A stretch of 64,000 nucleotides of DNA from Dehalococcoidia bacterium UBA2979 (GCA_002348225.1 DEAP01000041.1:5047-69046); one strand, 5' to 3'; positions 7,242 through 47,966 are shown, numbered from the stretch's first letter. Made by a program: numbers and translations. The notes: generated by a model from the sequence alone, not told the origin.

Positions 7242-8870
7242 TTACCAACTGACTGCTGCTCCATCACCCCTACCATCAGATCCTCCCCATAAAACGTTAG
7301 AATTTCTATCTCTCATAATGATTTGTCCACGTCCGAATAGTCCGAGTCGCCGTGATCCGGTAGCAATATCCATATGGTGCCCTCTCCGGTTCAATTCATG
7401 AATTGTTGGAGCCGGGATACTGTCCTCAATTGAAACAATGCCCCATGGAGGGTTTCGGTAAATAGAAAAACGAGGTTCGTCGAGGGCAGCTTGTGGGTTC
7501 ATGTCGTAATCAATTAAATTGATCATCGTTTGGACGTGCCCCTGTGGCTGATGATACCCACCCATAACACCCATGCTTGCGAAGAGTTCGTTTGTATCGG
7601 CGTGAGTGATGAGTGCTGGAATTATCGTATGGTATGGCCGTTTGTTTGGTTCGAGTTTGTTCGGATGGTCGGGATTAAGTACAAAACCAGAACCTCTATT
7701 CTGAAGCGTAAAACCACATCCCATTGGAACTATTCCTGTTCCAAATCCTCCGTAATTACTGTTTATAAAGGAACAAGCATTTCCTACTCCGTCAACGACG
7801 CTCAAGTAGACGGTGTCAGACACTTGCTCTGGTCCCTCATTTGGTGCAATACAGACAGCTGGATCTAATTCACCCCGAAGCTTCAAAGTGTGTTCGTCAG
7901 AAAGTAGTTCTTCTACCGGGACCTCATGGAAGTCGGGATCGGCGATGTGAGACTTGCCTTCTCGAAAAGCCAGGCGGACAGAGTCAATTAACAGATGTAG
8001 GAGGTCCGGTCCACGACGATCAAATTCCCTAATATCGAACGACTTGAGAATGTTAAGGGCAATAAGTGCTATTAGTCCTTGTCCATTCGGTGGATGTTCC
8101 CAAATTCGATAGTCACGATATTGAGTGGATATCGGATCTGGGAAACTAGACCGATGGGAACTGAGGTCTTCTTCAGTCAACCAACCGTTCAGTGGTTCTA
8201 AAACCTTAACAATATTCTTCCCTGCATAACCTTCGTAGAACGCCTTCGGGCCACCTTCGCCAATCTCTCGGAAAATTCGAGCAAGATTTAGATTCGTCCA
8301 GATTTCACCCGCTCGAGGGGCCCGTCCGTTCAGTAAAACTTCGTCAGCGTGTGGGCTGGCGCCTTTGAGCAGATCTTCGCTATCGACCCATAATTTTGAA
8401 ATTACCGGTGTAACGGGGATTCCGTCCTCAGCCAGTGTGATGGCAGGCTTAAGAACATCGAGGAGTGGCATCGTACCGAACCTGGTAATCGTGTCTGCCC
8501 ACCCCATCGCCGCGCCCGGGACAGTAACGCTATGAGCGGTAGTCGAGACTTCTCCGAAATCCTGAATCCCGAGGCTCTGCATTTCTGCGATTGTCTGAGC
8601 TCCCCCGCTGCGCCCACTGCCGTTTAAGCATCTGATATTTCTGGTATTGCTGTCGTAATATAGGGCGAAGCAGTCTCCACCAATTCCGGTGGAAGTTGGT
8701 TCAACGACATTGAGAGCAGCAGCGGTTGCGACGGCAGCATCTGCAGCGTTCCCACCATTCTGTAGAGTCTGTAGACCGGCCATAGCAGCAAGCGGGTGGC
8801 TTGTTGCTACCATACCTCGAGTTCCTAAGACAGGTGAACGTCGTGACTCGAAGTTCCAATTCTCGTTCAT
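7242..8870 (-). CDS. ggt: Gamma-glutamyltransferase.
   Basis: The N-terminus TSHPLAAMAGLQTLQNGGNAADAAVATAAALNVVEPTSTGIGGDCFALYY is canonical GGT, and the catalytic Thr autoprocessing region is present. The start is taken at the internal ATG 8870 (MNENWNF...), preceded by an AGGAAG RBS, rather than the ORF-track start at 9005. Confidence 0.85.
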   Translation of the reverse strand: MNENWNFESRRSPVLGTRGMVATSHPLAAMAGLQTLQNGGNAADAAVATAAALNVVEPTSTGIGGDCFALYYDSNTRNIRCLNGSGRSGGAQTIAEMQSLGIQDFGEVSTTAHSVTVPGAAMGWADTITRFGTMPLLDVLKPAITLAEDGIPVTPVISKLWVDSEDLLKGASPHADEVLLNGRAPRAGEIWTNLNLARIFREIGEGGPKAFYEGYAGKNIVKVLEPLNGWLTEEDLSSHRSSFPDPISTQYRDYRIWEHPPNGQGLIALIALNILKSFDIREFDRRGPDLLHLLIDSVRLAFREGKSHIADPDFHEVPVEELLSDEHTLKLRGELDPAVCIAPNEGPEQVSDTVYLSVVDGVGNACSFINSNYGGFGTGIVPMGCGFTLQNRGSGFVLNPDHPNKLEPNKRPYHTIIPALITHADTNELFASMGVMGGYHQPQGHVQTMINLIDYDMNPQAALDEPRFSIYRNPPWGIVSIEDSIPAPTIHELNRRGHHMDIATGSRRLGLFGRGQIIMRDRNSNVLWGGSDGRGDGAAVSW

Positions 8871-8916
8871 TAATACATTTTCTTCCTGATATTCTTTGCT
8901 TAAGGATAAGCGGACA

Positions 8917-9117
8917 ATGGAACTAAAGCCTACATACTGGGTGAACGTCGACGCTGAGGTGCAGATCATCCACAGTGGGGATTGCGATCTTGTGCAAGAG
9001 TACACTGGTGCCGAGAAAACTTTTGGCTACTGGATATCATTTGTTGAGAAAAGCATGGCTTTTGCAGAATTCGATGATCTGAGCGAGTGCGTGATGTGTC
9101 TCACTGGGGACCAATAG
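8917..9117 (+). CDS. Hypothetical small Cys-containing protein (66 aa).
   Basis: The ORF MELKPTYWVNVDAEVQIIHSGDCDL...SECVMCLTGDQ has an AAGGAT RBS about 8 nt upstream. It is divergent from ggt and has no recognisable domain. Confidence 0.25.
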   Translation: MELKPTYWVNVDAEVQIIHSGDCDLVQEYTGAEKTFGYWISFVEKSMAFAEFDDLSECVMCLTGDQ

Positions 9118-9118
9118 C

Positions 9119-9667
9119 TTACGAGTTCGGTTCAACTGCCCCAGCAATAATTAGTGTCAAAGTAGCCACATCTATAGGTCCGGCATGTCTCTCCAGTACC
9201 GTGGCTCCATCTGCATCAATGGTACAAATTCGAGGGAATCCTAAGATTCCTAACTCTCGCGCCAACTCTTGATCTTCTTTGTTGGCCACGTCCAGAATGA
9301 CATAATTTATTTGTGATTGAGTGTCGTATCGTAACCCGTCAACTACGGATCGCACCTGTTTGCAGCTCATTCAGCCGACAGCCGAATTGAATACCAGAGT
9401 TGGTAGACCATTTTGTGGAATGAAAGCACCGGTGCGGTCAATTTGCCTGTCGGACATTTTGAAATTTTGTTGAACTAGTACTGCTTTGCCGTCAGATGGG
9501 TAATTACCTGTAGCTATCGCTGACTGCTGATCTGGGGAGCTGCCAGATTGACTGCTTGATCCTTTTTCAATCTTGGAGTTTTCAGCGGCGCATGAGATCA
9601 AAAGGGCTATCATTATCGAAGCTGTCACCGAAGGCAATAATCTTTTCGGTAGTGCAAAGCTGACCAT
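9119..9667 (-). CDS. Thioredoxin-fold lipoprotein, candidate selenoprotein (Sec encoded by in-frame TGA 9371..9373; redox motif U-M-S-C).
   Basis: ORFs 9371..9667 and 9119..9370 are in the same frame, separated only by a TGA. The N-terminal part has a signal peptide and lipobox (LISC). The merged protein follows a complete thioredoxin fold: beta strand PTLVFNSAVG, then U-MSC, then helix KQVRSVVDGL, strand YVILDV, helix ELARELGI, cis-Pro FPRICTIDADG, and strand VLERHAG. The TGA falls exactly at the nucleophilic Cys of CXXC. A downstream hairpin (9330..9353, minus-strand mRNA GCGAUCCGU-AGUUG-ACGGGUUACG) starts 17 nt after the UGA and has G/U in the apical loop, consistent with a bacterial SECIS. 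Confidence 0.55.
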
Positions 9668-9702
9668 ATTTCCCCCTCTAGATCATCCTAGCTCAAGGAA
9701 AA

Positions 9703-11013
9703 TTAGCCGCAAATCCCTCGAACTGTAGCGTGCATGATTTGCATGCCGAGATGTAAGTTTTCGATGGATAGGCGCTCGTCGTGACCATGAACTCTTCCTT
9801 GCTCGCTCGGTCCGGTAAGGAACGGACTGAATCCATATGCGGTAATTCCTTCTCTCCTGAAAACTCTGGAATCGGTGAATCCGGTTGAGACGCCAGGCAG
9901 TATTAGTGCATCTTCCACCAAGTTTTTTGCTTCGCGCATCATAATTTCCCAAAGCTCCGTATTCATAGGTGAGGCTGGGGTTGAAGACTGGAATACCCTT
10001 TCAATCTGAATCCGAGGATCGTCAATGATTTTTGTCAGGCTATCTACAAAGACATCAGGGTCGTAACCCGGTACCAAACGACAGTCAAGAGTGGCTTCAG
10101 CGTCTGACGGAATTACGTTGTGCTTTACTCCTGATCTTAGTGTCGTTAGCGCAATGGAGTTCCGAGTCATAGAGTCAATGCGAGGATTATCAGCAGCTAG
10201 TGCTTTTAGAACGTCGTCGGTGGGTTCGGCTTCAAGAATGCCAGCTTCATGAACAGCTTGAAAATAATTTCTTACTTCTGGCGTGATATCAAATGGTCTG
10301 TCCCAATCCAATATTTTATTGACGGCTCTAACGAGGTGATCTGCAGCATTGTCGCTATGGGGGACTGAGCCGTGTCCAGGAGTGCCTTCCACCGTGAGTT
10401 TCAGCCAGAGCGGCCCTTTTTCCGAGACACCAATGTTGAAAGAATCTCTTTCAACTCCAAGCACTTCGGTGCTACCTCCCCCACCTTCATTGATTACATA
10501 TTCGCACTTGATGAGTTCAGGATGCTCACGAGCAAGAAATTCCACTCCAAAAGCTGACCCAGCCTCTTCATCTGCAACTGCCATAAAGACGAGATCGCGC
10601 TTCAACGGAAGATTATTGCGTTTATGAATTAAGAATGAAACGAGCTCAATGATTCCAGTGCCCTTCATATCCTGAGCTCCTCGGCCCCATATGAAGCCGT
10701 CTCTGATTTCGCCGCCAAGAGGATCAACCGTCCAGTTTTCTATTTCGAAGGGAACGACATCCGTGTGATTGAGAAGTATCAGTGAGTCGCCGCGGCTGCC
10801 ATCTCCTTCAAGAGTGGCCACCAACGTCACCCGGTTGTCACCAGCGTCGTAAAGTTTGAAAGGGATGCCTTCGTTCTCCAGAATATCCCCTAAAAAATCA
10901 CAAGCTATTATTTCATTTCCCGGTGGATTAACTGTGTCTACTTGAATGTACGTTGACAGCCATTCGGTTGCTTGTTCGGTCCACTCATCCCAATCAATAG
11001 TCGGCTCTGCCAT
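9703..11013 (-). CDS. M20 family metallopeptidase (ArgE/DapE/ACY1/CPG2-like).
   Basis: It is 436 aa with the M20 metal-binding motifs LLNHTDVVP and GAQDMKG, and has a dimerisation insert. Confidence 0.8.
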   Translation of the reverse strand: MAEPTIDWDEWTEQATEWLSTYIQVDTVNPPGNEIIACDFLGDILENEGIPFKLYDAGDNRVTLVATLEGDGSRGDSLILLNHTDVVPFEIENWTVDPLGGEIRDGFIWGRGAQDMKGTGIIELVSFLIHKRNNLPLKRDLVFMAVADEEAGSAFGVEFLAREHPELIKCEYVINEGGGGSTEVLGVERDSFNIGVSEKGPLWLKLTVEGTPGHGSVPHSDNAADHLVRAVNKILDWDRPFDITPEVRNYFQAVHEAGILEAEPTDDVLKALAADNPRIDSMTRNSIALTTLRSGVKHNVIPSDAEATLDCRLVPGYDPDVFVDSLTKIIDDPRIQIERVFQSSTPASPMNTELWEIMMREAKNLVEDALILPGVSTGFTDSRVFRREGITAYGFSPFLTGPSEQGRVHGHDERLSIENLHLGMQIMHATVRGICG

Positions 11014-11083
11014 TTTTGCCTCACTCTACCTGTTCTCGCCCTTTTCCTTCAGTTCATTTTAGTCTAGCGGGAAATAAATATTT

Positions 11084-11659
11084 CTAATCACGTTGAAACG
11101 GTGCAATTTCGCCATCGGGAACCGGTATTTCGAACACATTTAGGACGAATGATATAGCTGAGTAGTATCCGATCAATGTGGTGATTTCCATCACGCCTTG
11201 TTCGCCGAGTAGTGCTATCACAGATTCGTACGCATCATCCGAAGCTCGATGTTCATGAATCACCTGTGAACAAAACACATATACCGTCTGTTCGTCTCCC
11301 GTTAAAACAGGCTCATCGCCATTTCTAATACTTTCAACGACATGCGGCTCGACTCCTGCCTCAATAGCCATCCTGGCGTGAGCCCAGAATTCGTATTGCG
11401 CTTCCCAATGCGCTCCAATTGTAATAATCGCAAGTTCCAACAGGTTTCTTGGAACTGAAGTCCCAAACCTGAGACGAGCTCCAAGTTCTTGGAGTGCGAT
11501 ACCAATGTTTGGGGCGTGAAGCATGGCATTAAATGGGCCGCCCAATGAACCTGTATCTGATTTCATATTGGCTCCTCGAGGTCCGGATGTGAGCGCATCA
11601 TATGTCAGTTTCTGTTCAGGGCTTAATTCACCAGGTATCAACAACTTGAGTCGTGGCAT
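11084..11659 (-). CDS. Carboxymuconolactone decarboxylase (CMD/AhpD-like) family protein.
   Basis: It has an AhpD-like all-helical fold signature (MPRLKLLIPGELSPEQKLTYDAL...). The start is set at the internal ATG 11659, preceded by an AAAGGAAAAG RBS, rather than 11680. Confidence 0.7.
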   Translation of the reverse strand: MPRLKLLIPGELSPEQKLTYDALTSGPRGANMKSDTGSLGGPFNAMLHAPNIGIALQELGARLRFGTSVPRNLLELAIITIGAHWEAQYEFWAHARMAIEAGVEPHVVESIRNGDEPVLTGDEQTVYVFCSQVIHEHRASDDAYESVIALLGEQGVMEITTLIGYYSAISFVLNVFEIPVPDGEIAPFQRD

Positions 11660-11769
11660 ATTTCTTTTCCTTTCAACCATATTCGTGCGGCCTACGCGCG
11701 GTTAGGATATCTGGAGACGATCAGTTTGAATAGAGTGGCTGACTAATAAAAGCCGGAGTAGGCAGCTAG

Positions 11770-12639
11770 ATGACAAAGAGACAGTTTCTTGTTTTAGCTG
11801 TCGGCATACTTGCGGTCAGTTGGGCGGGGCCGCTGATCAGACTGGCCGACGAAGCATCATTTCTATTTGTCGCAGCAGCGAGACTTGCTCTGGCTTCACC
11901 TGTGATGCTCCTCTTAGCTCTCTATCGTCGTAACCAACGAATGATTGTCATCCCCTCTAGACATACATTACTGATGATTCTGTCTGGAGTCGCATTGGCT
12001 GCACATTTTGGTTTTTGGGTAGCGAGCATCTCTCATACATCTATCCTGGCCTCAGTTGCTCTTGTTGCTATGAGTCCATTATTTGCGGCTCTCGGGGAAT
12101 GGCTATTTCTTAGCTATAGACCTAGCAAAGTAGTGTTCATAGGTATTCTTATTAGCTCAGTTGGGGCGGTAGGACTGGCTTGGTCTGATTTCGGTACTGG
12201 AGGCATATATGGTGACCTACTCGCGATCATCGGTGCAATACTTGCTTCCGTTTATTTGTTGCTCGGAAGGTATACACGACAGCAGATTGACTTAACTGCG
12301 TACGGGGCGATCGTCTACGCGGTGGGTGCCAGTGTACTTGCCGTGATCCTGCTCATCGTAGGAGTAAATTGGGCAAATTATCAGCTCGAGACCTATGTGT
12401 TTATTTTATTCCTTGCATTAATCCCCCAGTTGATCGGTCACAATGCGATTAATTATTCCTTGGGATTTGCACCTGCAGCGGTGGTCGCTCTTGCCATCCT
12501 CGGCGAGCCAGTTGGTTCTGCTCTAATTGCTGCATTGTTGTTTGAAGAAATTCCGTCAGTAATTGAGGCGTGTTTTGGATGTGTAATATTGCTTGGAGTT
12601 GGCATTGGAGTCAGAGGTGTGGAAATCACCAAAAGTTAA
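11770..12639 (+). CDS. DMT superfamily (EamA-like) transporter.
   Basis: It is 289 aa with about 10 predicted TM helices arranged as two EamA-like repeats. Confidence 0.75.
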   Translation: MTKRQFLVLAVGILAVSWAGPLIRLADEASFLFVAAARLALASPVMLLLALYRRNQRMIVIPSRHTLLMILSGVALAAHFGFWVASISHTSILASVALVAMSPLFAALGEWLFLSYRPSKVVFIGILISSVGAVGLAWSDFGTGGIYGDLLAIIGAILASVYLLLGRYTRQQIDLTAYGAIVYAVGASVLAVILLIVGVNWANYQLETYVFILFLALIPQLIGHNAINYSLGFAPAAVVALAILGEPVGSALIAALLFEEIPSVIEACFGCVILLGVGIGVRGVEITKS

Positions 12640-13874
12640 CCTAATTCTACGTCAGGCCTTTCTTCCCACAAAATCTGTTGCTCGACAAGTTCGTCGAGTT
12701 GTGTGGTATCGAATTCAAGTAATTCCGACAGGACTTCGCGCGTGTGCTCCCCCATATCAGGGGACGTTCCCTTAATTCCACCAGGCGTTCTTGACATTTT
12801 TATCGGAGTATTTGCCAGAGGGGTAGGACCAAATGTTTTATGATCCACGTGGGGCAACATATCTCGGGCTGCTACCTGTGGCATTGCGGAGGCTTCCGCG
12901 ATGTTGTTTAGAGGTCCGCACGGGATTCCGTATTTCTGAAGTGCATCGACCCAATCCGATGTATTTTTTTTAATAAAGGCCTGGTTCAATAGAGCTTCTA
13001 AATCAGCGTGATTCCGTGTGCGGGCTGCAGAGGTCTCGAAGCGTGGGTCGTCAATGAGTTCTGGGACATCAAGTTCGACACACAGAAGCCCCCACTGGTT
13101 TGAAATTCCCCACGCGAGGGCGAGAACGATGTATCCATCTTTGGTAGGGAATCCTTGGAAAGGCACGGCCGTAGGATGTCTCGTCCCAATTCGACCAGGG
13201 ATTTCCTGAGTGATGTGGTATCTCATATATTCGTTTGTCTGAGCCGCTATCTGGCAGTCAAGCATCGATATATCAATCAACTGGCCTTCTCCAGACTTTT
13301 CACGTTCGTGTATTGCCGCTAAAACGCCGACAGAGCAATAGAGGCCAGCTGCTACATCGCCGACAGAAAACCCTACCCGAGCAGGCCCGGAATCAGGGTA
13401 TCCGGTAATGGACATCACTCCTCCAGCTCCCTGAACAATAACGTCCAGCGCGGGTTTGTCCTTAAGAGGGCCAGTCTGGCCGTAACCAGAAATCGCTGCG
13501 TATATAAGCCTGGGATTTATATTTTTGAGATCGTGGTAGCCGAGTCCAAGGCGATCCATAGCGCCAGGGGTGAAGTTCTCTACCACCACATCAACTTCTT
13601 TTATCAGGTCTCGGAAAATTTCTTTTCCTCTATCTTTGCTGAGATCCACTGCAATCGATCTCTTACCTCGATTGACAGAAAAGAAATAACCAGATTCTCC
13701 ATCGATCATAGGTAAGGTAGTACGTGCGACGTCCCCGTACGGAGGTCTTTCTAATTTAATGACATCGGCGCCGAGATCTCCAAGTGTCTGGGTACAGATT
13801 GGTCCAGACAGAACCCAGGTGAGGTCTAGAATACTGATTCCTTTGAGGGGTCCAGACGTTGGCAATGCTGGCAC
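12636..13874 (-). CDS. CaiB/BaiF family (class III) CoA-transferase.
   Basis: The N-terminus LKGISILDLTWVLSGPICTQTLGDLGADVIKLERP is the family-III CoA-transferase signature. It has a GTG start 20 nt downstream of the UGSC gene stop, so it is probably co-transcribed. Confidence 0.85.
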   Translation of the reverse strand: MPALPTSGPLKGISILDLTWVLSGPICTQTLGDLGADVIKLERPPYGDVARTTLPMIDGESGYFFSVNRGKRSIAVDLSKDRGKEIFRDLIKEVDVVVENFTPGAMDRLGLGYHDLKNINPRLIYAAISGYGQTGPLKDKPALDVIVQGAGGVMSITGYPDSGPARVGFSVGDVAAGLYCSVGVLAAIHEREKSGEGQLIDISMLDCQIAAQTNEYMRYHITQEIPGRIGTRHPTAVPFQGFPTKDGYIVLALAWGISNQWGLLCVELDVPELIDDPRFETSAARTRNHADLEALLNQAFIKKNTSDWVDALQKYGIPCGPLNNIAEASAMPQVAARDMLPHVDHKTFGPTPLANTPIKMSRTPGGIKGTSPDMGEHTREVLSELLEFDTTQLDELVEQQILWEERPDVELG

Positions 13875-13894
13875 GCTAAATGCTCACTTTCTTC

Positions 13895-14431
13895 TCAGTC
13901 GACGAGCGCATCAATCAGCTGTTCAATGACTTCGTCGGCCTTGTTATGCATTTCATTATCGGTTTGATCCTGCATTGGATGCCGAATAAACACCCGATGA
14001 ACGTCCGGCATTCCTAGTGATTTTGATTGAGCTGCGGCTGCATCCACAAATTCATTAGTTGCTACAAACACGGCGGGTATGCCGTTGCTTTCAAACCAAA
14101 CCGTATCGTGCACACTGCACGTTGTGCAAGATCCTCAGTCAGCGACTGCCTCAATTACAAAATTACACTCGTTCATGATTTTACGCCGTAAATCATATGG
14201 TGCTGGTTTTGCGAACGTTGGTTTCTTATATCTCTTGACATGAACCGACGGCATTTGTTCATGTATTTGTTGCTCCAATCGATCAAGAAATTTGTCACCG
14301 CGTGGTTTTGATATGTCGAGCAGGCCAATAGTGCCCGTTATGTGCTCGGACCGCTTAGCCTGAGACCTACTAATAGGTTCTCTTTCATCAGTAGGGTCGA
14401 GAATTATTGTCGGGTTAACTTCCAATGTCAT
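13895..14431 (-). CDS. UGSC-motif (seleno)protein; in-frame TGA at 14135..14137 read as Sec.
   Basis: ORFs 14135..14515 and 13895..14113 share a frame. Reading through the TGA gives ...EAVAD-U-GSCTTCSVHDTVWFESNG..., i.e. a U-G-S-C motif like that of the described UGSC (seleno)protein family. The start is set at ATG 14431, which has a strong GGAGGA RBS and lies after the upstream gene's stop. A hairpin 13 nt after the UGA (14107..14121, CGUGCA-GUG-UGCACG, GU in the loop) is bSECIS-like. Confidence 0.6.
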
Positions 14432-14460
14432 GTATTCCTCCGGTGTTTGCAAACTTAAGA

Positions 14461-16050
14461 TTAAAGTTGTATTTTCTTGCTGGTGGGCATCGAACCACCT
14501 GTACCGCTGGCCCATCCATCAAAGACAGACGAAAATTTTCCGGCTTTAGAGCCTGCCACAACGATATGGATATTTTCAGTTGAGCGGAATTTTGGTATGA
14601 GTGAATCAAGCTTGGGATCAGAGGGGCCATCGAATATGTTGGGGTCCAGTCCAGCTCCTATTTCGTCATTCCTAAGGAGTTCCCGGGCAGGTCGACTTGA
14701 GATATCTTGAATCCGATCCCGAATTTCTGATTTCGACCAGTTATTAGTGGAAATTGTCTCGACATGTTCTGGGCAAAGTACCAGGATTGTGTCCCCGTAG
14801 TTGTGTGAGTTGGGGTGATGAATTGCTTCCATTTTTACGCCAATTGATCCAACCAGTGATTTGGCATCTCTCGAAGTTTGGTCGATAGCATGTCCGAGTC
14901 CAGTCATGGCAAACGCAGTGACTACTGACTCATTTTTATCAAATCCCCGTTCAACATGTAGAGGAGCCCACGGGCTGATTTCCTCCCACTCCGCAAAACA
15001 TGTTGTATATCGGAGAGGACTACCCAGTGTCGACCGTTCGGTCTCTCCAGGCCGCTGTCCTCCAACATTTCTCAGGACAAGCCGGAGAGCTCGACCGATT
15101 GCGGCATTTGCCCGATTTCCTTGGCCGAGAGCATTGAGGCCCATGTTCATGCCTATTTCATGTCGGATTGGCCCGTTAACTATGAGAACCGGCGTTGCTC
15201 CCATAGTGGTCGCGCCCACACCGTGGGCATTAAATTCTTCAGTGCAAACTGCTTCTACGGCCGCTATAACCACCGGCAAGTATTCTGGTTTGCAACCTGC
15301 CATTACCGAATTGATCGCTATTTTTTCAACGGTTACTGGTGCAAGATTTGGTGGTACCACCGCAACAGTTTCTTGAGGATCTCGCTTAGTGCCTTCTAGT
15401 ATTCTGATTACTCGTTCCGGCGTAGGTGGGATCACCGGTAATCCATCAGTCAGGCCTTGTTCATATAGGAACTCATGAACGTCGTCATGTACTCCTATCT
15501 CCACTCGTCGGGCCCGTATAGGTGATCCTTCAGATTCAGCTTGTAATCGTTCAAAAATGCCCGGCTCCAAAGACTTGGAACCGCATCCAGGTCGTGATTC
15601 GGGATACGAATTCCAATCTACTTCAGGAGGTGTTTGTTCGCTGATGGCCGACATCTTCACATACAGCTCGCGCCAGTCATCTCGTCCGAAGCCGACAAAG
15701 TCAGTCACTGGAGTCCCATCAGGTGAAGCAAGAATGAGAGTGGGAACGGTTTCAATATCGTATGCGAACGAGGTGGTGAGACTGGAGTCATCTAGCAGTG
15801 GCATCATAAGGCCGTATTCTTCTGCTAATACGAGGTCATCTTCTCCATTTTGGGCTAGTGCCACTACATCAATATCTTTTCCGAACACTTCATAGGCCTT
15901 TTGTAGAAGAGGCATAGCGATTCTGGTTGTCGGACAGTCCTCCTTGACGAAACAAAGAAGTGTCGGGCGGCCTGACGGGAAGGAATAGGCGTTCTGAGTT
16001 CGGGTCGCGCCCGCTGTTGGTAGGGAAAAGTTTGGTAAATTATTCATCAC
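14461..16050 (-). CDS. Hypothetical 529-aa protein: N-terminal thioredoxin/peroxiredoxin-like domain fused to a large uncharacterised domain.
   Basis: The N-terminal approximately 140 aa carry a Trx-like pattern (TLLCFVKEDCPTTR...VPTLILASPDG). The C-terminal approximately 380 aa (GLTDGLPVIPPTPERV..., GATTMGATPVLIVNGPIRHE...) match no family I can name. It sits immediately upstream of the UGSC gene in the same operon. Confidence 0.5.
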   Translation of the reverse strand: MMNNLPNFSLPTAGATRTQNAYSFPSGRPTLLCFVKEDCPTTRIAMPLLQKAYEVFGKDIDVVALAQNGEDDLVLAEEYGLMMPLLDDSSLTTSFAYDIETVPTLILASPDGTPVTDFVGFGRDDWRELYVKMSAISEQTPPEVDWNSYPESRPGCGSKSLEPGIFERLQAESEGSPIRARRVEIGVHDDVHEFLYEQGLTDGLPVIPPTPERVIRILEGTKRDPQETVAVVPPNLAPVTVEKIAINSVMAGCKPEYLPVVIAAVEAVCTEEFNAHGVGATTMGATPVLIVNGPIRHEIGMNMGLNALGQGNRANAAIGRALRLVLRNVGGQRPGETERSTLGSPLRYTTCFAEWEEISPWAPLHVERGFDKNESVVTAFAMTGLGHAIDQTSRDAKSLVGSIGVKMEAIHHPNSHNYGDTILVLCPEHVETISTNNWSKSEIRDRIQDISSRPARELLRNDEIGAGLDPNIFDGPSDPKLDSLIPKFRSTENIHIVVAGSKAGKFSSVFDGWASGTGGSMPTSKKIQL

Positions 16051-16086
16051 GGTAAACCTAGCCTTTGAAACAAAAACATCAATTGT

Positions 16087-16461
16087 CTATTTTGGTATCC
16101 AGTCTGTTGTGAATACCAATGCTAGGGTCAGTATAGACAAAATAAGTATGAAAGATAGTATGCGCCCTCGATGTCGTTTTCGACTCTTGTGCATTAATTT
16201 CTTTGCAGCACGTACTTGACCCGTTTTCAGCGCAAACCATTCACCTCGAATTCTCGTTTCCTTGAAGGCATTATGTAGTTTGCGCTCAATCATGAGTGCA
16301 TCGTCTGTTTGAATAGACTTCACGATTTCTAATTTAGTTGGCGAGCCAGTTTGCAGATTTCTCATCCGATCCTGCATGTTTGAGGTTTGCCCTATTTTGT
16401 AGAGTTGTTCGGAGCCAATTTTTGGCCCACGGATAAGATACACGAAGCCGTCTTTTTTCAT
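16087..16461 (-). CDS. GIY-YIG nuclease-superfamily domain protein with a C-terminal transmembrane anchor.
   Basis: It has GFVYLIRG...LYKIGQT spacing typical of GIY-YIG (T5orf172-like). It also has a basic region and a hydrophobic C-terminal helix (ILSFILILSILTLALVF). Confidence 0.55.
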   Translation of the reverse strand: MKKDGFVYLIRGPKIGSEQLYKIGQTSNMQDRMRNLQTGSPTKLEIVKSIQTDDALMIERKLHNAFKETRIRGEWFALKTGQVRAAKKLMHKSRKRHRGRILSFILILSILTLALVFTTDWIPK

Positions 16462-16553: not shown

Positions 16554-17354
16554 ATGCCCATACTCGATGAATTTAACTTGTCCGGTCAGGCAGCCATTAT
16601 CACTGGTGCCGGGACTGGCTTGGGACGAGAAATGGCACTGGCACTGGCTGATTCCGGGTGTGACATAGTTGCGATAGGTCGACGGCAGGAGCCAATCGAA
16701 AGTGTGGGAGCAGAGATAGAGTCTCGAGGCCGGAGGTTTTTGGGTATTTCTGACGGTGATGTCACAAAATCTGAGAGAGTCAACGAAATGTTCAAGGACG
16801 CTATCTCGAAGATGGGACGTATAACACTGCTGATCAATAACGCCGGGCTCGGCGGCAGTGGGCGAGGCAAGACACTGCCCGAACTTACTGATGAAGACTG
16901 GCATAGTGGGATTGAAAGTAATTTATACTCAGCCTTCTATTGTTCGAGGTCAATCATCCCTCATTTTCTTGAGAATGGTGGTGGACGTGTGATCAACGTA
17001 ACCTCCGGTTGGGGCTACCGTGGTGGCAGAAATAACTGGATGTATCCGGTAGCAAAGGGTGGAGTGATTCAATTAACAAAAGCCCTTGCTATGACTTACG
17101 CCAGAGATAACGTGCGGGCGTCGTGTATTGCACCCGGTCTTTTCCCTAAGACAGATGACGAAGCTATGCTCGAGCAAATGGGAAGCAAGCAGCCGGCTGG
17201 TCGAATTGGCTTCATGCCAGAGATGGGACCTCTCGCAGTATTTCTCGCGTCACCGGCGTCGGATTATTTGAGTGGTGAAACCATTTTGATGGATGGTGGT
17301 GCCATATCAGCTGGTCTCATCCCGGCAGGTATTATTCCGGAATCAGAAGCGTAG
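16554..17354 (+). CDS. SDR family oxidoreductase.
   Basis: It has the TGAGTGLGREMA Rossmann motif and the catalytic YxxxK. A GGGGGAG RBS precedes the start. Confidence 0.85.
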   Translation: MPILDEFNLSGQAAIITGAGTGLGREMALALADSGCDIVAIGRRQEPIESVGAEIESRGRRFLGISDGDVTKSERVNEMFKDAISKMGRITLLINNAGLGGSGRGKTLPELTDEDWHSGIESNLYSAFYCSRSIIPHFLENGGGRVINVTSGWGYRGGRNNWMYPVAKGGVIQLTKALAMTYARDNVRASCIAPGLFPKTDDEAMLEQMGSKQPAGRIGFMPEMGPLAVFLASPASDYLSGETILMDGGAISAGLIPAGIIPESEA

Positions 17355-17369
17355 GCGAAGGAGTGAAAT

Positions 17370-18218
17370 ATGACCAACGAAGTCTTTCCAATTACCCCTG
17401 AAGGTGAACAAAATCCATATTTCTCCGGGAGATATTTTGATCTGAGTGGGAAACATGCCCTTGTGACAGGTGCTACTACAGATATTGCGAGAGCTCTCGC
17501 AGTCGCCCTGGCTGAAGCTGGTGCAAAAGTGTCCGTTACTACTAGCGCTGCAGTAGATGAACAAGAAGTGCTTGCTAACTCGATATTAAATGAATGTTGG
17601 GCTGCGTCTGGTGAGGAAGGCAAGAGCCTGACCTTGGACTTGACCGATGCACCTAGTTTCGTGGAGGCAATTGAATCTCTCGAAAAAGAGCTTGGACCTG
17701 TTGATGTTTTGGTGAATGCTCCTCATTTCGCTAATATAAAGCCAGTTCTAGACTCCTCTACGGATGAATGGGCTAATGAACTATCCAGAAATGCCACAGC
17801 GGTGTTTGTGGCGAGTCAGACTGTCGGTCGTGGGATGGTTTCGCGCGGCAAGGGTCGAATAATTAATTTAGTGTCTAATCTTTATGACCGGGGTATCCCT
17901 AACTGTGCATTATTTGGTGCATCGCAAGGTGCAGTACTAGGGTTCACAAAATCACTCGGGCTGGAGTGGGGTGGAGGAGATCCGCTTACCAAAGACAGAG
18001 TCACTGTGAATGCACTAGGGATCGGATTCTATGAAGGGGTCGCAGGACCACAAAACGATCCTAATCTTTCTCCAGTTTTGGAAAAATATATCCCACTAAG
18101 GCGTCTTGGCCGACCGGAAGATCTAAGAGGCGCAGTTGTATACCTTGCCTCGGATGAAGCTGATTATGTAAACGCTGAACTTTTGGTGGTAGATGGCTCG
18201 ATAGTCAATCACGCATAA
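17370..18218 (+). CDS. SDR family oxidoreductase (divergent).
   Basis: It has SDR fold motifs (ALVTGATTDIARALAVALAEAGAKV). It is translationally coupled 15 nt after the preceding SDR. Confidence 0.8.
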   Translation: MTNEVFPITPEGEQNPYFSGRYFDLSGKHALVTGATTDIARALAVALAEAGAKVSVTTSAAVDEQEVLANSILNECWAASGEEGKSLTLDLTDAPSFVEAIESLEKELGPVDVLVNAPHFANIKPVLDSSTDEWANELSRNATAVFVASQTVGRGMVSRGKGRIINLVSNLYDRGIPNCALFGASQGAVLGFTKSLGLEWGGGDPLTKDRVTVNALGIGFYEGVAGPQNDPNLSPVLEKYIPLRRLGRPEDLRGAVVYLASDEADYVNAELLVVDGSIVNHA

Positions 18219-20025: not shown

Positions 20026-20799
20026 ATGGACAGATATGAAGGATCAACTGCGCTCGTGACTGGTGCCGCGTCTGGCATCGGACGTGCGATGGCTGAGCGA
20101 CTGGCGGAAGAGGGATGCGCTGTAGTGTGTGCTGACATTGATGGTGAAGGCGCCGAAGACACAGCAGCCCAGCTGCTTGAAAAGGGTAGCAGGGCATCTG
20201 CCATAAAACTGGATGTAACTGACTCAACGGCGATTAAAGAAGCTATTGAGAAAACTATTGATGAATTTGGTTCGTTTGACGTGCTTATGAATAATGCGGG
20301 GATAGCTGGTGGGAGTTGGGAAGACACTATAGACATTAATTTGAGTGGTGTGTATTACGGACTTCAACATGGTTGCCGGGTCATGGCCCAGAGAGGCGGT
20401 GGTTCAATTGTGAATACAGCTTCTGTTGCTGGCCTAAACGGCTTAGTAGGCACAACAGTCACCCCTGAAGAACTTTTGCAGGGTGAGGGGGCGGTGGGCA
20501 CTGGAGCTTATACAGCCGCCAAGCATGGTGTAGTGGGTTTGACCAGGCAATTTGCTGTGACGTACGGCAAACTAAATGTTCGAGTGAACGCGATTTGTCC
20601 GGGTTACATTGTGACCCCAATGACAGCACCATTCCGTGAGCGCGAAGGCGGAACAGAATTCTTAGAAAGTCTTCATCCCATTGGCCGACTCGGTGAATCA
20701 GAAGAAATCGCATCGGCAGCGGCTTTCTTAGCTAGTTCTGATGCTTCATTTATTACGGGAATTGCTCTCCCAGTTGATGGTGGCTATACCGCTAGGTAA
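20026..20799 (+). CDS. SDR family oxidoreductase (3-oxoacyl-ACP-reductase-like).
   Basis: It has ALVTGAASGIGRAMAERLAEEG, NNAG and YxxxK motifs. A GGGAGG RBS precedes the start. Confidence 0.85.
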   Translation: MDRYEGSTALVTGAASGIGRAMAERLAEEGCAVVCADIDGEGAEDTAAQLLEKGSRASAIKLDVTDSTAIKEAIEKTIDEFGSFDVLMNNAGIAGGSWEDTIDINLSGVYYGLQHGCRVMAQRGGGSIVNTASVAGLNGLVGTTVTPEELLQGEGAVGTGAYTAAKHGVVGLTRQFAVTYGKLNVRVNAICPGYIVTPMTAPFREREGGTEFLESLHPIGRLGESEEIASAAAFLASSDASFITGIALPVDGGYTAR

Positions 20800-25187: not shown

Positions 25188-25952
25188 TCATATCGCACTT
25201 CGGCTCTGTCCGCCATCGACCGGAATCGTTGACCCAATAACCCACGATGCCCGTTTCGACGCCAGCCACACTACTGCATCCGCTACTTCCTCAGGCTTGC
25301 CGAATCTACCCCCTGGGATTTCATTTCGGATGAACTCAGCCATCCCTTCCGGGTCTTCGACTAGGCGGTTTCCCCAGGAGCCACCCTCAAATGCAATTGA
25401 CCCAGGAGCAATATTGTTGATTCGAATGCCATCGGATGCCCAATTACGTGCATATGAATTCGAAAGTGCTATCTGGGCAGCCTTCGACGACTGATACTGA
25501 GGAGGCCCACCGTGTTCTCTGCCGAATATCGAAGAAATATTTATGACGGATGCGTGCTCTGATTTCAGTAGAGATTCGCGTAATGTTTCCATTATTCTCA
25601 ACGGCGCCATCACGTTCAGTTCGAAAGATTGCCTCCAATTACTTTCAGTATCGCCTCCTCGGATGGTCGCACCCGCATTATTGACGAGGACGTCCACATG
25701 AGGGAATATTTCCTGCAGTTTCCTATCAATTGTGTCTGGCGCACTAGCCGACGCAACATCGCAGGAGAGGGTATGAACACTCGAAGTACCCTGCCTATCT
25801 AACGATTCTTTTAAATCCGATAGAAGCTCTTCGTCGCGGGCGATGAGGAGTAGGTGAGATCCTTCCTCATAGAACTTCTCGGTAATTGCGCGTCCAATGC
25901 CTCGGGAAGCTCCGGTAACAATCACGTATTTGTCGGTCAGTTCAAGATCCAT
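25188..25952 (-). CDS. SDR family oxidoreductase.
   Basis: It has VIVTGASRGIGRAITEKF, NNAG and YQSSKAA motifs. Confidence 0.85.
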   Translation of the reverse strand: MDLELTDKYVIVTGASRGIGRAITEKFYEEGSHLLLIARDEELLSDLKESLDRQGTSSVHTLSCDVASASAPDTIDRKLQEIFPHVDVLVNNAGATIRGGDTESNWRQSFELNVMAPLRIMETLRESLLKSEHASVINISSIFGREHGGPPQYQSSKAAQIALSNSYARNWASDGIRINNIAPGSIAFEGGSWGNRLVEDPEGMAEFIRNEIPGGRFGKPEEVADAVVWLASKRASWVIGSTIPVDGGQSRSAI

Positions 25953-39783: not shown

Positions 39784-40590
39784 ATGGTACTTGAAAAATT
39801 TAATTTAAAGGACAAAGTAATTTGTGTGACCGGTGGTGGCCGAGGGCTAGGTAGAGGAATGGCGAAGGCCTTGTCTGAAGCTGGAGCCAAAATTGTGGTC
39901 GCATCACGGACTCAAAAACAGCTTGACTCCGTAGTGGAGGAGATAGTATCTGGTGGCGGAGACGCCATGAGTATTGCCTTTGATGCAACGCAATCAGAGC
40001 AAGTGGACAGTCTGATTGCAGGATGTGTAGCAGAATATGGTCGACTGGACGTGATGTTCGCAAATGCCGGAATCGGTGGTGGGACACAAGCAGAGTTTTG
40101 GGAATATCCAGATTGGGCGTTTGACGGAGAGCTAAGTACTAATCTCAAGTCTACTTTTTACACTTGCAGAGCAGCGGCGAAACAGATGATTCAGCAGGGT
40201 GATGGTGGTGTTTTGGTAACGACTTCGTCCGGAACTGCTCTTCGTGGAAATAAAAATTTTCCTTATCCGACAGCAAAGGGTGGAGTTATATCACTCACTA
40301 AGTCAATGGCGACGATGCTTTACAGTCACGGTATAAGATCGAATTGTATTATTCCCGGATTTGTGTCACAGGCCCCTCCAGAGAATGAGCAAGAAAGAAT
40401 ATTTAGAGAGCAAAGAGGGAAATTTATTCCGGCCCAGCGACTGGGTGAGTGGTGGGAATTGGGGCCATTAGCAGTATTTTTGGCTTCAGAAGCATCATCC
40501 TATATCACCGGAAGCTCTTTCGTAATCGACGGAGGAGGATTAGCCGGTGGACTTGGTCCGATTGGCTACAGACCGGAATATGAGTGGTAG
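39784..40590 (+). CDS. SDR family oxidoreductase.
   Basis: It has VTGGGRGLGRGMAKALSEAGAKIVV, NAG and YxxxK motifs. Confidence 0.85.
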   Translation: MVLEKFNLKDKVICVTGGGRGLGRGMAKALSEAGAKIVVASRTQKQLDSVVEEIVSGGGDAMSIAFDATQSEQVDSLIAGCVAEYGRLDVMFANAGIGGGTQAEFWEYPDWAFDGELSTNLKSTFYTCRAAAKQMIQQGDGGVLVTTSSGTALRGNKNFPYPTAKGGVISLTKSMATMLYSHGIRSNCIIPGFVSQAPPENEQERIFREQRGKFIPAQRLGEWWELGPLAVFLASEASSYITGSSFVIDGGGLAGGLGPIGYRPEYEW

Positions 40591-40597
40591 GCCGGAC

Positions 40598-47880: not shown

Positions 47881-47925
47881 AAAGGAGCATCTCTACGGAG
47901 ATGCTCCTTTCTTTATGCTATTTTA
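47881..47925 (+). terminator. Rho-independent terminator after the SBP gene.
   Basis: It is a perfect 13-bp stem AAAGGAGCATCTC-TACG-GAGATGCTCCTTT followed by a T-rich tract (CTTTATGCTATTTTATT). The ORF-track ATG at 47901 lies inside the stem. Confidence 0.7.
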
Positions 47926-47966
47926 TTCTCGGAAGGTCACGAGCATTCGATAACAGAGGGGAAAAA

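What the first reader, a model, noticed from the sequence alone, without database searches (positions are those of the whole stretch)
9119..16461. Two independent UGA-recoded redox genes within 5 kb plus AhpD-like and Trx-like neighbours: possible selenium-dependent thiol-redox module
Within 7 kb, on the same strand, lie a Sec-Trx-like lipoprotein, an M20 peptidase, a CMD/AhpD-like protein, a UGSC selenoprotein, a 529-aa protein with an N-terminal Trx/Prx-like domain (TLLCFVKEDCPTTR) and a GIY-YIG protein. Clustering of two different Sec-recoded genes with further thiol-redox folds is unlikely by chance. It suggests a functionally linked, so far uncharacterised redox system. Its link to the CaiB CoA-transferase (acyl-CoA chemistry) is unexplained.
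Basis: inference. Interest (0 to 1): 0.7.

Follow-up and report, generated by a model that had tools for sequence, protein, structure and literature searches.

The report
UGSC selenoprotein and its conserved partner
Both stop-codon-recoded (selenocysteine) genes are real, but only one of them, the known but uncharacterised UGSC selenoprotein, forms a conserved unit with a neighbour (the 529-aa protein); the rest of the proposed 7-kb "module" is just local gene order.

Summary
Both in-frame TGA codons (9371-9373 and 14135-14137, minus strand) are genuine selenocysteine codons. One lies in an exported thioredoxin-like lipoprotein. The other lies in a member of the UGSC selenoprotein family, which is known from computational work and has no known function.

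The proposed seven-gene redox module is not supported. Across 160 related loci, the Sec-Trx, T5orf172 and EamA genes never travel with the UGSC gene, and M20 and CMD-like matches are rare and distant. The "AhpD-like" call fails family thresholds.

What is conserved is a two-gene unit: the 529-aa protein directly followed by UGSC. The 529-aa protein is a TlpA/ResA-like thioredoxin domain joined to a ~340-aa domain with no Pfam, NCBIfam or PDB match.
- UGSC is adjacent to the 529-aa homologue in 65 of 80 genomes, and in 58 of 69 loci in the reverse test.
- TGA is kept in 151 of 151 loci, with a SECIS hairpin whose synonymous sites are frozen.
- The two proteins are fused, in both orders, in 23 of 150 representative clusters.
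- In Alphaproteobacteria selA, selB and tRNA-Sec sit directly upstream.
- Cys-type versions in cultured bacteria sit in operons with trxB and trxA.

Best reading: a thioredoxin-driven, two-part seleno-reductase with an unknown substrate. A family III CoA-transferase neighbour recurs but is not universal.

The parts
14461..16050 (-). Partner protein, 529 aa. Cytoplasmic TlpA/ResA-like thioredoxin domain (residues 1-137, active site CPTT here, CxTC in relatives), a linker with an invariant PGCGS, and a ~340-aa domain of unknown fold with a conserved NAVMAGC motif (Cys253).
13895..14431 (-). UGSC family selenoprotein, 178 aa, motif D-U-G-S-C-T-T-C. The ATG at 14431 is preceded by GGAGG.
   Evidence: NF041046 170.1 bits (cut-off 125); PF24696 166.7 bits. 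Directly downstream of the partner gene in 65 of 80 genome loci.
14135..14137 (-). UGA selenocysteine codon of UGSC.
   Evidence: TGA at the homologous position in 71 of 71 genome loci and 80 of 80 metagenome loci.
14107..14121 (-). Bacterial SECIS hairpin of UGSC: 6-bp stem C17-G31, loop G23-U24-N25, counted from the U of UGA.
   Evidence: RNAalifold consensus. In 143 distinct sequences the codons inside the hairpin are invariant (ACG 133/133, TGC 143/143, AGT 142/142, GTG 74/74), while flanking codons use 2-5 synonyms. All six pairs are kept, and pair 18:30 varies between G-C and G-U.
12636..13874 (-). Family III (CaiB-type) CoA-transferase. It starts 20 nt after the UGSC stop, so it is probably co-transcribed. 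Whether it belongs to the system is uncertain.
   Evidence: PF02515 425 bits. No terminator-like site between the genes on the minus strand. A CoA-transferase recurs near the pair in Roseovarius, Natrinema, Halalkalicoccus and Haladaptatus. It is the first downstream gene in only 5 of 74 genome loci and lies within 10 kb in 15 of 80.
9119..9667 (-). Separate selenoprotein: thioredoxin-like lipoprotein, 182 aa, lipobox LLISC, active site U-M-S-C. Not part of the UGSC unit.
   Evidence: Thioredoxin_2 26.7 bits (cut-off 27). U aligns with the first Cys of CGPC. TGA and frame are conserved in L081-L084. Absent from all 160 other loci.
9371..9373 (-). UGA selenocysteine codon of the Trx-like lipoprotein.
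9333..9351 (-). SECIS-like hairpin of the Trx-like gene: 7-bp stem at +23..+41, loop AGUUG with GU at +31/+32.
   Evidence: Fold. The orthologue can form the same hairpin in the same register, with U25:G39 changed to G25:U39 and A24:U40 changed to G24:U40 (read from the sequences). Only two distinct sequences were available.

Best explanation
The window holds two unrelated selenoprotein genes.

(1) An exported Trx-like lipoprotein carries Sec in place of the attacking Cys (UxxC). It is an ordinary member of the Sec-containing Trx-like proteins common in aquatic bacteria.

(2) A conserved two-gene unit, most likely an operon with the CaiB gene downstream, encodes a cytoplasmic two-part seleno-oxidoreductase. 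The UGSC protein carries the redox centre U-x-x-C(-x-x-C). Its partner supplies a ~340-aa substrate-binding or catalytic domain of unknown fold with a conserved Cys in NAVMAGC. In this subfamily the partner also carries a fused TlpA-like thioredoxin domain.

Proposed cycle (inferred, not shown): the selenolate of UGSC attacks the substrate held by the partner domain; a selenenylsulfide forms with the nearby Cys; the fused Trx domain re-reduces it. In relatives free TrxA would do this step, and TrxB with NADPH recharges the Trx. In this window's lineage the Trx domain is CPTT, so it would act as a monothiol through a mixed Se-S or S-S intermediate.

The substrate is unknown. Recurring neighbours are family III CoA-transferase, CoA-ester lyase, enoyl-CoA hydratase, acyl-CoA dehydrogenase, RraA-like proteins, and TRAP or TTT transporters. 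These point loosely to catabolism of an imported carboxylic acid, possibly as its CoA ester.
For: Shown:
- Both TGAs are Sec codons.
- UGSC lies within 400 nt downstream of the partner gene, same strand, in 65 of 80 genomes; these come from Chloroflexota, Gamma- and Alphaproteobacteria, Binatia, Acidobacteriota, Actinomycetota and Myxococcota.
- In the reverse test, 58 of 69 UGSC loci with enough upstream sequence have the partner directly upstream.
- Of the 150 best representative clusters of the partner domain, 23 are fusions with UGSC: 14 UGSC-domain and 9 domain-UGSC. Pfam confirmed the five fusion proteins that were scanned.
- A stand-alone partner domain without Trx is also followed by a TGA-containing UGSC gene.
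- The Sec machinery sits next to the pair. tRNA-Sec is directly upstream in 19 genome and 6 metagenome loci. selA and selB lie upstream of it. An Ndh-SelD fusion lies downstream in L037.
- Thioredoxin-system genes sit beside Cys-type pairs in cultured hosts: trxB-trxA-domain-UGSC in Arthrobacter, domain-UGSC-trxB in Roseovarius, and trxB three genes upstream in Variovorax.
- Sec is almost never replaced by Cys: 151 of 151 loci here, and 255 Sec against 21 Cys in GOS (PMC2398784). This fits chemistry that needs selenium.
- 12 of 22 UGSC proteins give weak hits to the Sec region of glycine and sarcosine reductase selenoprotein B (best E=1e-3, model positions ~331-410).
Against: - There is no experimental datum for any member; reviews up to 2026 list the function as unknown.
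- The electron path from Trx to UGSC to substrate is inferred from domain content and neighbours only.
- The window's Trx domain lacks the resolving Cys (CPTT), so a classical dithiol relay cannot operate here.
- 8 of 69 UGSC loci and 8 of 79 partner loci with enough sequence lack the adjacent mate.
- The similarity to GrdB is far below family cut-offs (12-15 bits against 600-800). No GrdA, GrdE or PrdA-like pyruvoyl subunit is present.
- Neighbours are heterogeneous. CaiB paralogues are common in these genomes, so the acyl-CoA link may be background.
- The model of the C-terminal domain on its own is of moderate quality (pLDDT 73.8; 86.6 for the full-length model), so 'no known fold' is provisional.
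- UGSC itself was not modelled.
Confidence: 0.6

Rival explanations
1. One reading: a seven-gene selenium-dependent thiol-redox module (Sec-Trx, M20, CMD-like, CaiB, UGSC, 529-aa protein, GIY-YIG) working together.
For: The genes are close together and mostly on one strand. The arrangement is kept in four contigs whose 529-aa protein is 79% identical to the window's.
Against: Those contigs are collinear over the whole 20 kb, including unrelated genes, so the synteny carries no information. In the 80 genome loci Sec-Trx, EamA and T5orf172 are never found; M20-like genes appear in 5 of 80 at 24-29% identity and CMD-like in 2 of 80, none adjacent. In the 80 metagenome loci none of these five genes is matched. 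Sec-Trx is an exported lipoprotein, whereas UGSC and its partner have no signal sequence. The CMD-like protein fails the Pfam threshold and has no redox Cys pair.
Confidence: 0.04
2. The UGSC pair is a general antioxidant or disulfide-repair system (a peroxidase or protein-disulfide reductase), not a metabolic enzyme.
For: The partner's N-terminus matches AhpC/TSA and ResA/TlpA models. It has a UxxC redox motif, and most prokaryotic selenoproteins are thiol oxidoreductase homologues (PMC2398784). trxB and trxA are neighbours.
Against: The conserved association is with the ~340-aa non-Trx domain, which is often present without any Trx domain (85 of 150 clusters). That domain has many invariant Arg, Glu, His and Asn residues typical of a small-molecule site. 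No peroxiredoxin-type T/S-x-x-C motif precedes Cys39 (sequence). Neighbours are catabolic genes and transporters with LysR regulators rather than stress regulons. The near-obligate use of Sec is unusual for simple thiol-disulfide exchange.
Confidence: 0.2
3. The pair is part of the selenium-utilisation machinery itself, for example reducing or delivering selenium to SelD. That would explain why it sits inside selA-selB-selC(-selD) clusters.
For: There is tight clustering with selA, selB, tRNA-Sec and an Ndh-SelD fusion in Alphaproteobacteria and with selB in Paracoccus.
Against: Cys-type pairs occur in haloarchaea, Arthrobacter, Variovorax and Roseovarius plasmids without Sec genes nearby. Outside Alphaproteobacteria no sel genes are adjacent, and none are in this window. 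A simpler explanation is that the Sec machinery travels with its main client gene.
Confidence: 0.1
4. The TGA codons are real stops, sequencing errors or pseudogene lesions.
For: Public gene calls split UGSC into fragments of 98 and 72 aa.
Against: TGA is at the same codon in 151 of 151 loci from many phyla, with protein conservation on both sides. The SECIS hairpin has frozen synonymous sites. Curated family models span the site. The Sec-Trx orthologue keeps the TGA and the frame.
Confidence: 0.01

Closest known systems
UGSC family (seleno)protein (NCBIfam NF041046, Pfam PF24696); the 'UGSC-containing protein' of Zhang and Gladyshev (PMC1976440, PMC2398784)
   Same: The window protein is a full member: it scores above both curated cut-offs and has the U-G-S-C motif, the expected size, an in-frame TGA and a SECIS hairpin. 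The 2008 GOS paper already noted a 'UGSC/Unknown_1' fusion; the partner domain here is probably that Unknown_1. This could not be checked because that figure panel is an image.
   Different: Nothing differs for the UGSC gene itself. What the papers read here do not describe: the near-constant operon with a Trx-fused partner; fusions in both orders; the selA-selB-tRNA-Sec-partner-UGSC islands; and the trxB/trxA operons of the Cys forms.
Selenoprotein B of glycine, sarcosine, betaine and D-proline reductases (GrdB, GrdF, GrdH, PrdB), which are driven by thioredoxin and TrxB
   Same: Sec sits in a U-x-x-C context. There are weak but repeated HMM hits of UGSC to the Sec region (12 of 22 members). 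Sec is rarely replaced by Cys. trxB and trxA are encoded in the same operon; that this is also the case in grd operons is from my own knowledge. Both are two-part enzymes in which one subunit binds the substrate and the other carries Sec.
   Different: Scores are about fifty times below the family cut-offs. UGSC is about 175 aa against about 435 aa for GrdB. There is no GrdA, no pyruvoyl proprotein (GrdE or PrdA) and no GrdC or GrdD. The hosts are aerobic heterotrophs, not Stickland fermenters. The partner domain shows no similarity to any Grd or Prd subunit.
TlpA/ResA/DsbE thiol-disulfide oxidoreductases
   Different: There is no signal peptide or membrane anchor, so the domain is cytoplasmic. 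It is fused to a large unrelated domain. In this window the second Cys is Thr (CPTT). The database names 'TlpA family protein disulfide reductase' and 'redoxin domain-containing protein' describe only a quarter of the protein.
Sec-containing Trx-like proteins of marine metagenomes (the 'Trx-like' UxxC families in PMC2398784)
   Same: The lipoprotein at 9119-9667 has a Trx fold signature, with Sec replacing the first active-site Cys.
   Different: Which Trx-like subfamily it belongs to was not determined. No homologue was retrieved by the word-indexed protein search.

Membership tests
UGSC family (NF041046 / PF24696) | Whole-protein score above the curated cut-off | tested here: met
   170.1 bits against 125 (NCBIfam); 166.7 bits against 25 (Pfam).
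UGSC family (NF041046 / PF24696) | U(or C)-G-S-C motif with U encoded by an in-frame TGA | tested here: met
   The sequence reads VAD-U-GSCTTC, with TGA at 14135-14137. The same codon is TGA in 151 of 151 related loci.
UGSC family (NF041046 / PF24696) | Bacterial SECIS hairpin just downstream of the UGA | tested here: met
   6-bp stem at +17..+31 with loop G23-U24. Synonymous sites are frozen in 143 sequences. SelB binding itself cannot be tested here.
TlpA/ResA-type thiol-disulfide oxidoreductase (N-terminal domain of the 529-aa protein) | Thioredoxin fold | tested here: met
TlpA/ResA-type thiol-disulfide oxidoreductase (N-terminal domain of the 529-aa protein) | CxxC active site | tested here: not met
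   The window has C39-P-T-T42. 79 of 79 relatives have CxTC.
TlpA/ResA-type thiol-disulfide oxidoreductase (N-terminal domain of the 529-aa protein) | Export signal or membrane anchor (extracytoplasmic location) | tested here: not met
   The N-terminus MMNNLPNFSLPTAGATRTQNAYSF has no hydrophobic segment (read from the sequence). No dedicated predictor was run.
Peroxiredoxin (AhpC/TSA, PF00578) | Pfam score above the gathering threshold | tested here: met
   33.1 bits against 26, but a generic Trx-fold match.
Peroxiredoxin (AhpC/TSA, PF00578) | Peroxidatic Cys in a P-x-x-x-T/S-x-x-C context | tested here: not met
   The context is F-V-K-E-D-C-P-T-T, with no T/S three residues before the Cys (sequence).
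CMD/AhpD family (PF02627), for the 198-aa protein at 11084-11680 | Pfam score above the gathering threshold | tested here: not met
   12.5 bits against 23, E=0.16. No NCBIfam hit and no PDB sequence relative.
CMD/AhpD family (PF02627), for the 198-aa protein at 11084-11680 | CxxC (or CxxU) redox motif of AhpD-like members | tested here: not met
   There is a single Cys in the protein, in the context VFCSQV (sequence).
Glycine/sarcosine/betaine/proline reductase selenoprotein B (TIGR01917, NF040794, TIGR01918) | Score above the curated cut-off | tested here: not met
   12-15 bits against 600-800 for the window protein. The best E among 22 relatives is 1e-3.
Glycine/sarcosine/betaine/proline reductase selenoprotein B (TIGR01917, NF040794, TIGR01918) | Companion subunits (GrdA; the pyruvoyl proprotein GrdE or PrdA; GrdC/D) | tested here: not met
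   No such family appears among the 150 immediate neighbours scanned or among the eight window genes at 9119-16461.
Glycine/sarcosine/betaine/proline reductase selenoprotein B (TIGR01917, NF040794, TIGR01918) | Sec of UGSC aligned with the catalytic Sec of GrdB | tested here: inconclusive
   The matched stretches (protein 80-164 to model 331-410) put U99 near model position 350. I recall that as the Sec position of GrdB, but no residue-level alignment could be printed.
Thioredoxin family (Sec-Trx lipoprotein at 9119-9667) | Family score above the cut-off | tested here: not met
   Thioredoxin_2 26.7 bits against 27; Thioredoxin 20.4 against 23.5; TIGR01068 21.3 against 96.8. The first is borderline.
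Thioredoxin family (Sec-Trx lipoprotein at 9119-9667) | Redox pair at the CxxC position | tested here: met
   U-M-S-C aligns with C-G-P-C of thioredoxin 2l5l.

The most novel reading that the evidence does not exclude
UGSC and its ~340-aa partner domain form a previously unrecognised class of thioredoxin-driven seleno-reductase with a new fold. It would carry out a selenium-requiring bond cleavage (C-N, C-S or C-O, in the manner of GrdB/PrdB) on an abundant small organic acid or osmolyte in aerobic marine and soil bacteria. In some Alphaproteobacteria it would be the main reason the selenocysteine machinery is kept.
Probability: 0.2. Interest if true: 0.8.

Novelty: new member of a known kind. 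Interest (0 to 1): 0.5.

Why it matters
UGSC is one of the most abundant selenoprotein families in ocean and freshwater metagenomes. It ranks in the top five in GOS (PMC2398784), yet reviews up to 2026 still list its function as unknown (PMC13188914).

This analysis gives the open question concrete handles:
- an obligatory partner protein whose main domain is not covered by Pfam, NCBIfam or the PDB;
- a likely electron source, namely a fused Trx domain or adjacent trxA and trxB;
- self-contained selA-selB-tRNA-Sec-partner-UGSC islands;
- cultured hosts, both Sec-type (Sulfitobacter sp. M05; Paracoccus ferrooxidans; Hyphomonas neptunium according to PMC1976440) and Cys-type (Arthrobacter, Roseovarius, Variovorax, haloarchaea), in which genetics and biochemistry are feasible.

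It also shows that public annotation hides the system. UGSC is usually split at the TGA, and the partner is named 'TlpA family protein disulfide reductase' after a quarter of its length.

Tried and rejected
- Profile search of the partner family against PDB sequences gave only Trx hits.
- Profile search of UGSC against PDB sequences gave no hit at E<=10.
- The afdb50 library was not available.
- Pfam and NCBIfam at E<=10 on the C-terminal domain gave nothing.
- An idea that three Cys residues bind an Fe-S cluster was dropped. Cys253 is replaced by Ala in 6 of 80 relatives, Cys269 is missing in more than 12 of 80, and Cys156 exists only in the Trx-fused subfamily.
- An idea that PGCGS is a pyruvoyl-forming cleavage site, as in GrdE and PrdA, was considered but has no support.
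- The word-indexed homologue search for Sec-Trx returned nothing.
- Rfam found nothing in 8-18 kb.
- Promoter and terminator scans were at background level.
- Figure S1A of the GOS paper (Unknown_1) is an image and could not be compared.
- Folding energies of the two SECIS regions alone are not better than shuffles. The SECIS evidence comes from the comparative data, not from the energies.

Full report
**1. What is in the window**

On the minus strand between 9.1 and 16.5 kb lie, in order of transcription:
- a T5orf172/MUG113 gene (16087-16461);
- a 529-aa protein (14461-16050);
- an ORF interrupted by one TGA (13895-14431);
- a family III CoA-transferase (12636-13874);
- a 198-aa protein (11084-11680);
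- an M20 peptidase (9703-11013);
- a second ORF interrupted by one TGA (9119-9667).

An EamA transporter sits on the plus strand at 11770-12639, between the CoA-transferase and the 198-aa gene. A mechanical scan of the whole window for ORF pairs joined by a single TGA found only these two credible cases. The window has no tRNA gene and no selA, selB or selD.

**2. Both TGAs are selenocysteine codons**

The UGSC gene:
- The product reads ...EAVAD-U-GSCTTCSVHD.... It scores 170 bits against NCBIfam NF041046, 'UGSC family (seleno)protein' (cut-off 125), and 167 bits against Pfam PF24696.
- All 71 homologues found next to relatives of the 529-aa gene in reference genomes have TGA at this codon. 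So do all 80 found in metagenome contigs.
- Downstream of the UGA, RNAalifold predicts a 6-bp hairpin (C17-G31, counted from the U of UGA) with loop G23-U24-N25.
- In 143 distinct sequences from genomes of very different G+C content, the four codons inside the hairpin never vary at synonymous sites: Thr ACG 133/133, Cys TGC 143/143, Ser AGT 142/142, Val GTG 74/74.
- The codons just outside use two to five synonyms. That is the signature of an RNA element overlapping the coding sequence.
- A G-U in the loop at +23/+24 is where, from my own knowledge of the E. coli fdhF SECIS, SelB contacts the hairpin.

The Trx-like gene:
- Its product has a lipoprotein signal (…IALLISC) and reads ...NSAVG-U-MSCKQ....
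- The U aligns with the first Cys of the CGPC motif of a solved thioredoxin.
- The orthologue in contigs whose 529-aa protein is 79% identical keeps the TGA, the frame and protein similarity on both sides.
- A hairpin at +23..+41 with GU in the loop is retained there through a U:G to G:U exchange.

**3. The seven-gene module is not supported**

- Four contigs of a close relative show the same gene order, but they are collinear over 20 kb. The collinear stretch includes a gamma-glutamyltransferase, a nucleoside phosphorylase and an ABM monooxygenase gene, so this says nothing about function.
- In 80 loci from other lineages fetched with the 529-aa protein, Sec-Trx, T5orf172 and EamA are never present.
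- In those loci CMD-like matches occur twice. M20 matches occur five times, at 24-29% identity and at varying positions.
- None of these genes appears in 80 further loci fetched with UGSC.
- The 'AhpD-like' protein reaches only 12.5 bits for PF02627 (cut-off 23). It has a single Cys and no PDB relative.
- Sec-Trx is exported, while UGSC and the 529-aa protein have no signal sequence.

**4. What is conserved: a two-gene unit**

- A UGSC gene follows the 529-aa homologue on the same strand in 65 of 80 genomes. The median gap is 41 nt.
- Six more genomes have UGSC 0.7-7 kb away. Eight of the 79 genomes with enough downstream sequence have none.
- The genomes are Chloroflexota, Gamma- and Alphaproteobacteria, Binatia, Vicinamibacterales, Actinomycetota and Myxococcota.
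- In the reverse test, 58 of 69 UGSC loci with at least 300 nt upstream carry the partner directly upstream, 3 carry it elsewhere on the contig, and 8 lack it.

**5. The partner protein**

- In 79 of 79 relatives the active site is CxTC. In the window and its nearest relatives it is CPTT.
- The remaining ~390 residues are highly conserved, about 60% identical between phyla.
- Invariant features include PGCGS, GLTDGLPV, NAVMAGC, HG..ATT, GNRAN..IGRA.RL..RN.GG, E.EE..PW.P.HVE.GF, DQ, PEH and AG..AGK.
- This region matches no Pfam or NCBIfam model even at E<=10 and no PDB sequence.

**6. The association is with the unknown domain, not with the Trx domain**

An exhaustive HMMER search with the C-terminal region found 5319 representative clusters. 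The 150 best break down as follows:

| Architecture | Clusters |
|---|---|
| Domain alone (some are fragments) | 85 |
| Trx-domain | 29 |
| UGSC-domain fusion | 14 |
| Domain-UGSC fusion | 9 |
| Remainder: two or three hits to the domain in one protein (some are ~710-aa tandem duplications) | 13 |

- Pfam confirmed the five fusion proteins that were scanned.
- Many fusion entries begin or end exactly at the TGA, because gene callers truncated them.
- A stand-alone 351-aa domain protein is followed by a UGSC gene with the usual ...EALAD-TGA-GSCTTC.
- The GOS paper of 2008 mentions a 'UGSC/Unknown_1' fusion. This domain is probably Unknown_1, but the figure could not be read.

**7. Links to the Sec machinery and to the thioredoxin system**

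- In 19 of the 80 genome loci and 6 of the 80 metagenome loci, a tRNA-Sec gene lies directly upstream of the partner gene. Those that are named are Alphaproteobacteria such as Sulfitobacter, Phenylobacterium, Hyphomonas and Henriciella.
- selB and selA lie just before the tRNA-Sec gene. In Henriciella an Ndh-SelD fusion follows UGSC.
- On plasmids and chromids of cultured organisms the domain-only form pairs with Cys-type UGSC proteins (GDCGSC...).
- There the neighbours include thioredoxin-system genes: trxB-trxA-domain-UGSC in Arthrobacter sp. ERGS1:01, LysR-domain-UGSC-trxB in Roseovarius sp. THAF8, and trxB three genes upstream in Variovorax sp. SRS16.
- A separate trxA placed exactly where the window protein has its fused Trx domain is a strong hint that the Trx module feeds electrons to the pair.

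**8. Mechanism**

Shown:
- two proteins that co-occur, are often fused, and sit with Trx/TrxB genes;
- a Sec that is almost never replaced by Cys: 151 of 151 loci here, and 255 Sec against 21 Cys in GOS.

Inferred:
- NADPH to TrxB to Trx (fused or free) to the U-x-x-C centre of UGSC, which acts on a substrate bound by the unknown domain. The near-universal Cys of NAVMAGC may take part.

Also relevant:
- Twelve of 22 UGSC proteins give weak hits to the Sec-bearing region of glycine and sarcosine reductase selenoprotein B (best E=1e-3). Those enzymes are also recharged by thioredoxin (my own knowledge). So the system may work like a GrdB/PrdB-type reductase.
- It is not a member of that family. 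Scores are far below the cut-offs and no GrdA, GrdE or PrdA equivalents are present.
- The substrate is unknown. Immediate neighbours are heterogeneous.
- A family III CoA-transferase recurs: in the window, 20 nt downstream; in Roseovarius, Natrinema, Halalkalicoccus and Haladaptatus; as the first downstream gene in 5 of 74 genomes; and within 10 kb in 15 of 80.
- CoA-ester lyase, enoyl-CoA hydratase, acyl-CoA dehydrogenase, RraA-like proteins, and TRAP or TTT transporters also recur.
- This fits catabolism of an imported carboxylic acid, but it cannot be separated from the high background of such paralogues in these genomes.

**9. Verdict**

- The UGSC gene is an ordinary member of a family known since 2005-2008.
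- The interest lies in the partner domain, the Sec islands and the thioredoxin link. Together they make the unknown function of a very abundant aquatic selenoprotein experimentally approachable.

Noticed in passing
L017, L037-L039, L041, L043-L048, L052-L055, L058, L060-L062 (about 9.2-12.2 kb in the full-length loci); also L138, L148, L155, L156, L161, L164: Compact selenocysteine islands, in the order selA, selB, tRNA-Sec, partner gene, UGSC. In L037 an Ndh-SelD fusion follows. The tRNA-Sec gene lies within a few hundred nt of the partner gene. Sulfitobacter sp. M05 (L058) is a cultured isolate.
   Followed up: partly
L169 4638-7812 (Arthrobacter plasmid); L167 5950-8761 (Roseovarius plasmid); L170 3110-7590 (Variovorax plasmid): Cys-type UGSC proteins (GDCGSC...) pair with the stand-alone partner domain in operons that include trxB and, in Arthrobacter, trxA. 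RefSeq names the partner only 'hypothetical protein'.
   Followed up: partly
L166 2847-3314 (Natrinema) and L169 3668-4456 (Arthrobacter): A phosphosulfolactate synthase (ComA-like) gene lies close to the UGSC/partner pair in two unrelated hosts. This is a possible hint at organosulfonate chemistry.
   Followed up: no
window 15925-15936 (codons 39-42 of the 529-aa gene): The Trx active site is C-P-T-T in this window and in its closest relatives (P0002; C-A-T-T in P0005). All 79 more distant relatives have C-x-T-C. The resolving Cys has been lost in this lineage.
   Followed up: partly
P0121-P0240; L081 11613-12149: Public gene calls almost always split UGSC into a ~98-aa and a ~72-aa ORF at the TGA. 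P0122 reads the TGA as Trp. P0186 is a read-through or frameshift fusion of the partner's C-terminus with UGSC.
   Followed up: yes
P0253, P0272, P0275, P0276, P0311, P0362 (about 710-740 aa): These proteins consist of two tandem copies of the unknown partner domain. In Halalkalicoccus (L173 3279-5978) two separate domain genes appear to flank a UGSC gene (the identity of the upstream one was not checked).
   Followed up: no
window 7242-11013, minus strand: The M20 peptidase, the Sec-Trx lipoprotein and a gamma-glutamyltransferase-family gene are tightly spaced (gaps of about 35 and 113 nt) and may be co-transcribed. A role in gamma-glutamyl or cysteinyl peptide handling is conceivable but untested.
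   Followed up: no
window 16087-16461, minus strand: A T5orf172/MUG113 (GIY-YIG-related) protein with a C-terminal hydrophobic segment lies 36 nt upstream of the partner gene. It is kept only in the close relatives (L081-L084) and is absent from the other 160 loci.
   Followed up: partly
window 16554-18218, 20026-20799, 25188-25952, 39784-41395, 47901-48749: There are at least seven short-chain dehydrogenase paralogues within 64 kb, together with CoA-transferase and peptidase genes. This is typical of a paralogue-rich heterotroph, possibly a marine Chloroflexota lineage; the best hits of the 529-aa protein are Chloroflexi MAGs.
   Followed up: no
L168 5737-7422 (Vibrio europaeus plasmid): A divergent 561-aa relative of the partner (29% identity over residues 71-513) sits between aconitase X/DUF126 genes and an enolase gene, with no UGSC annotated nearby.
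   Followed up: no
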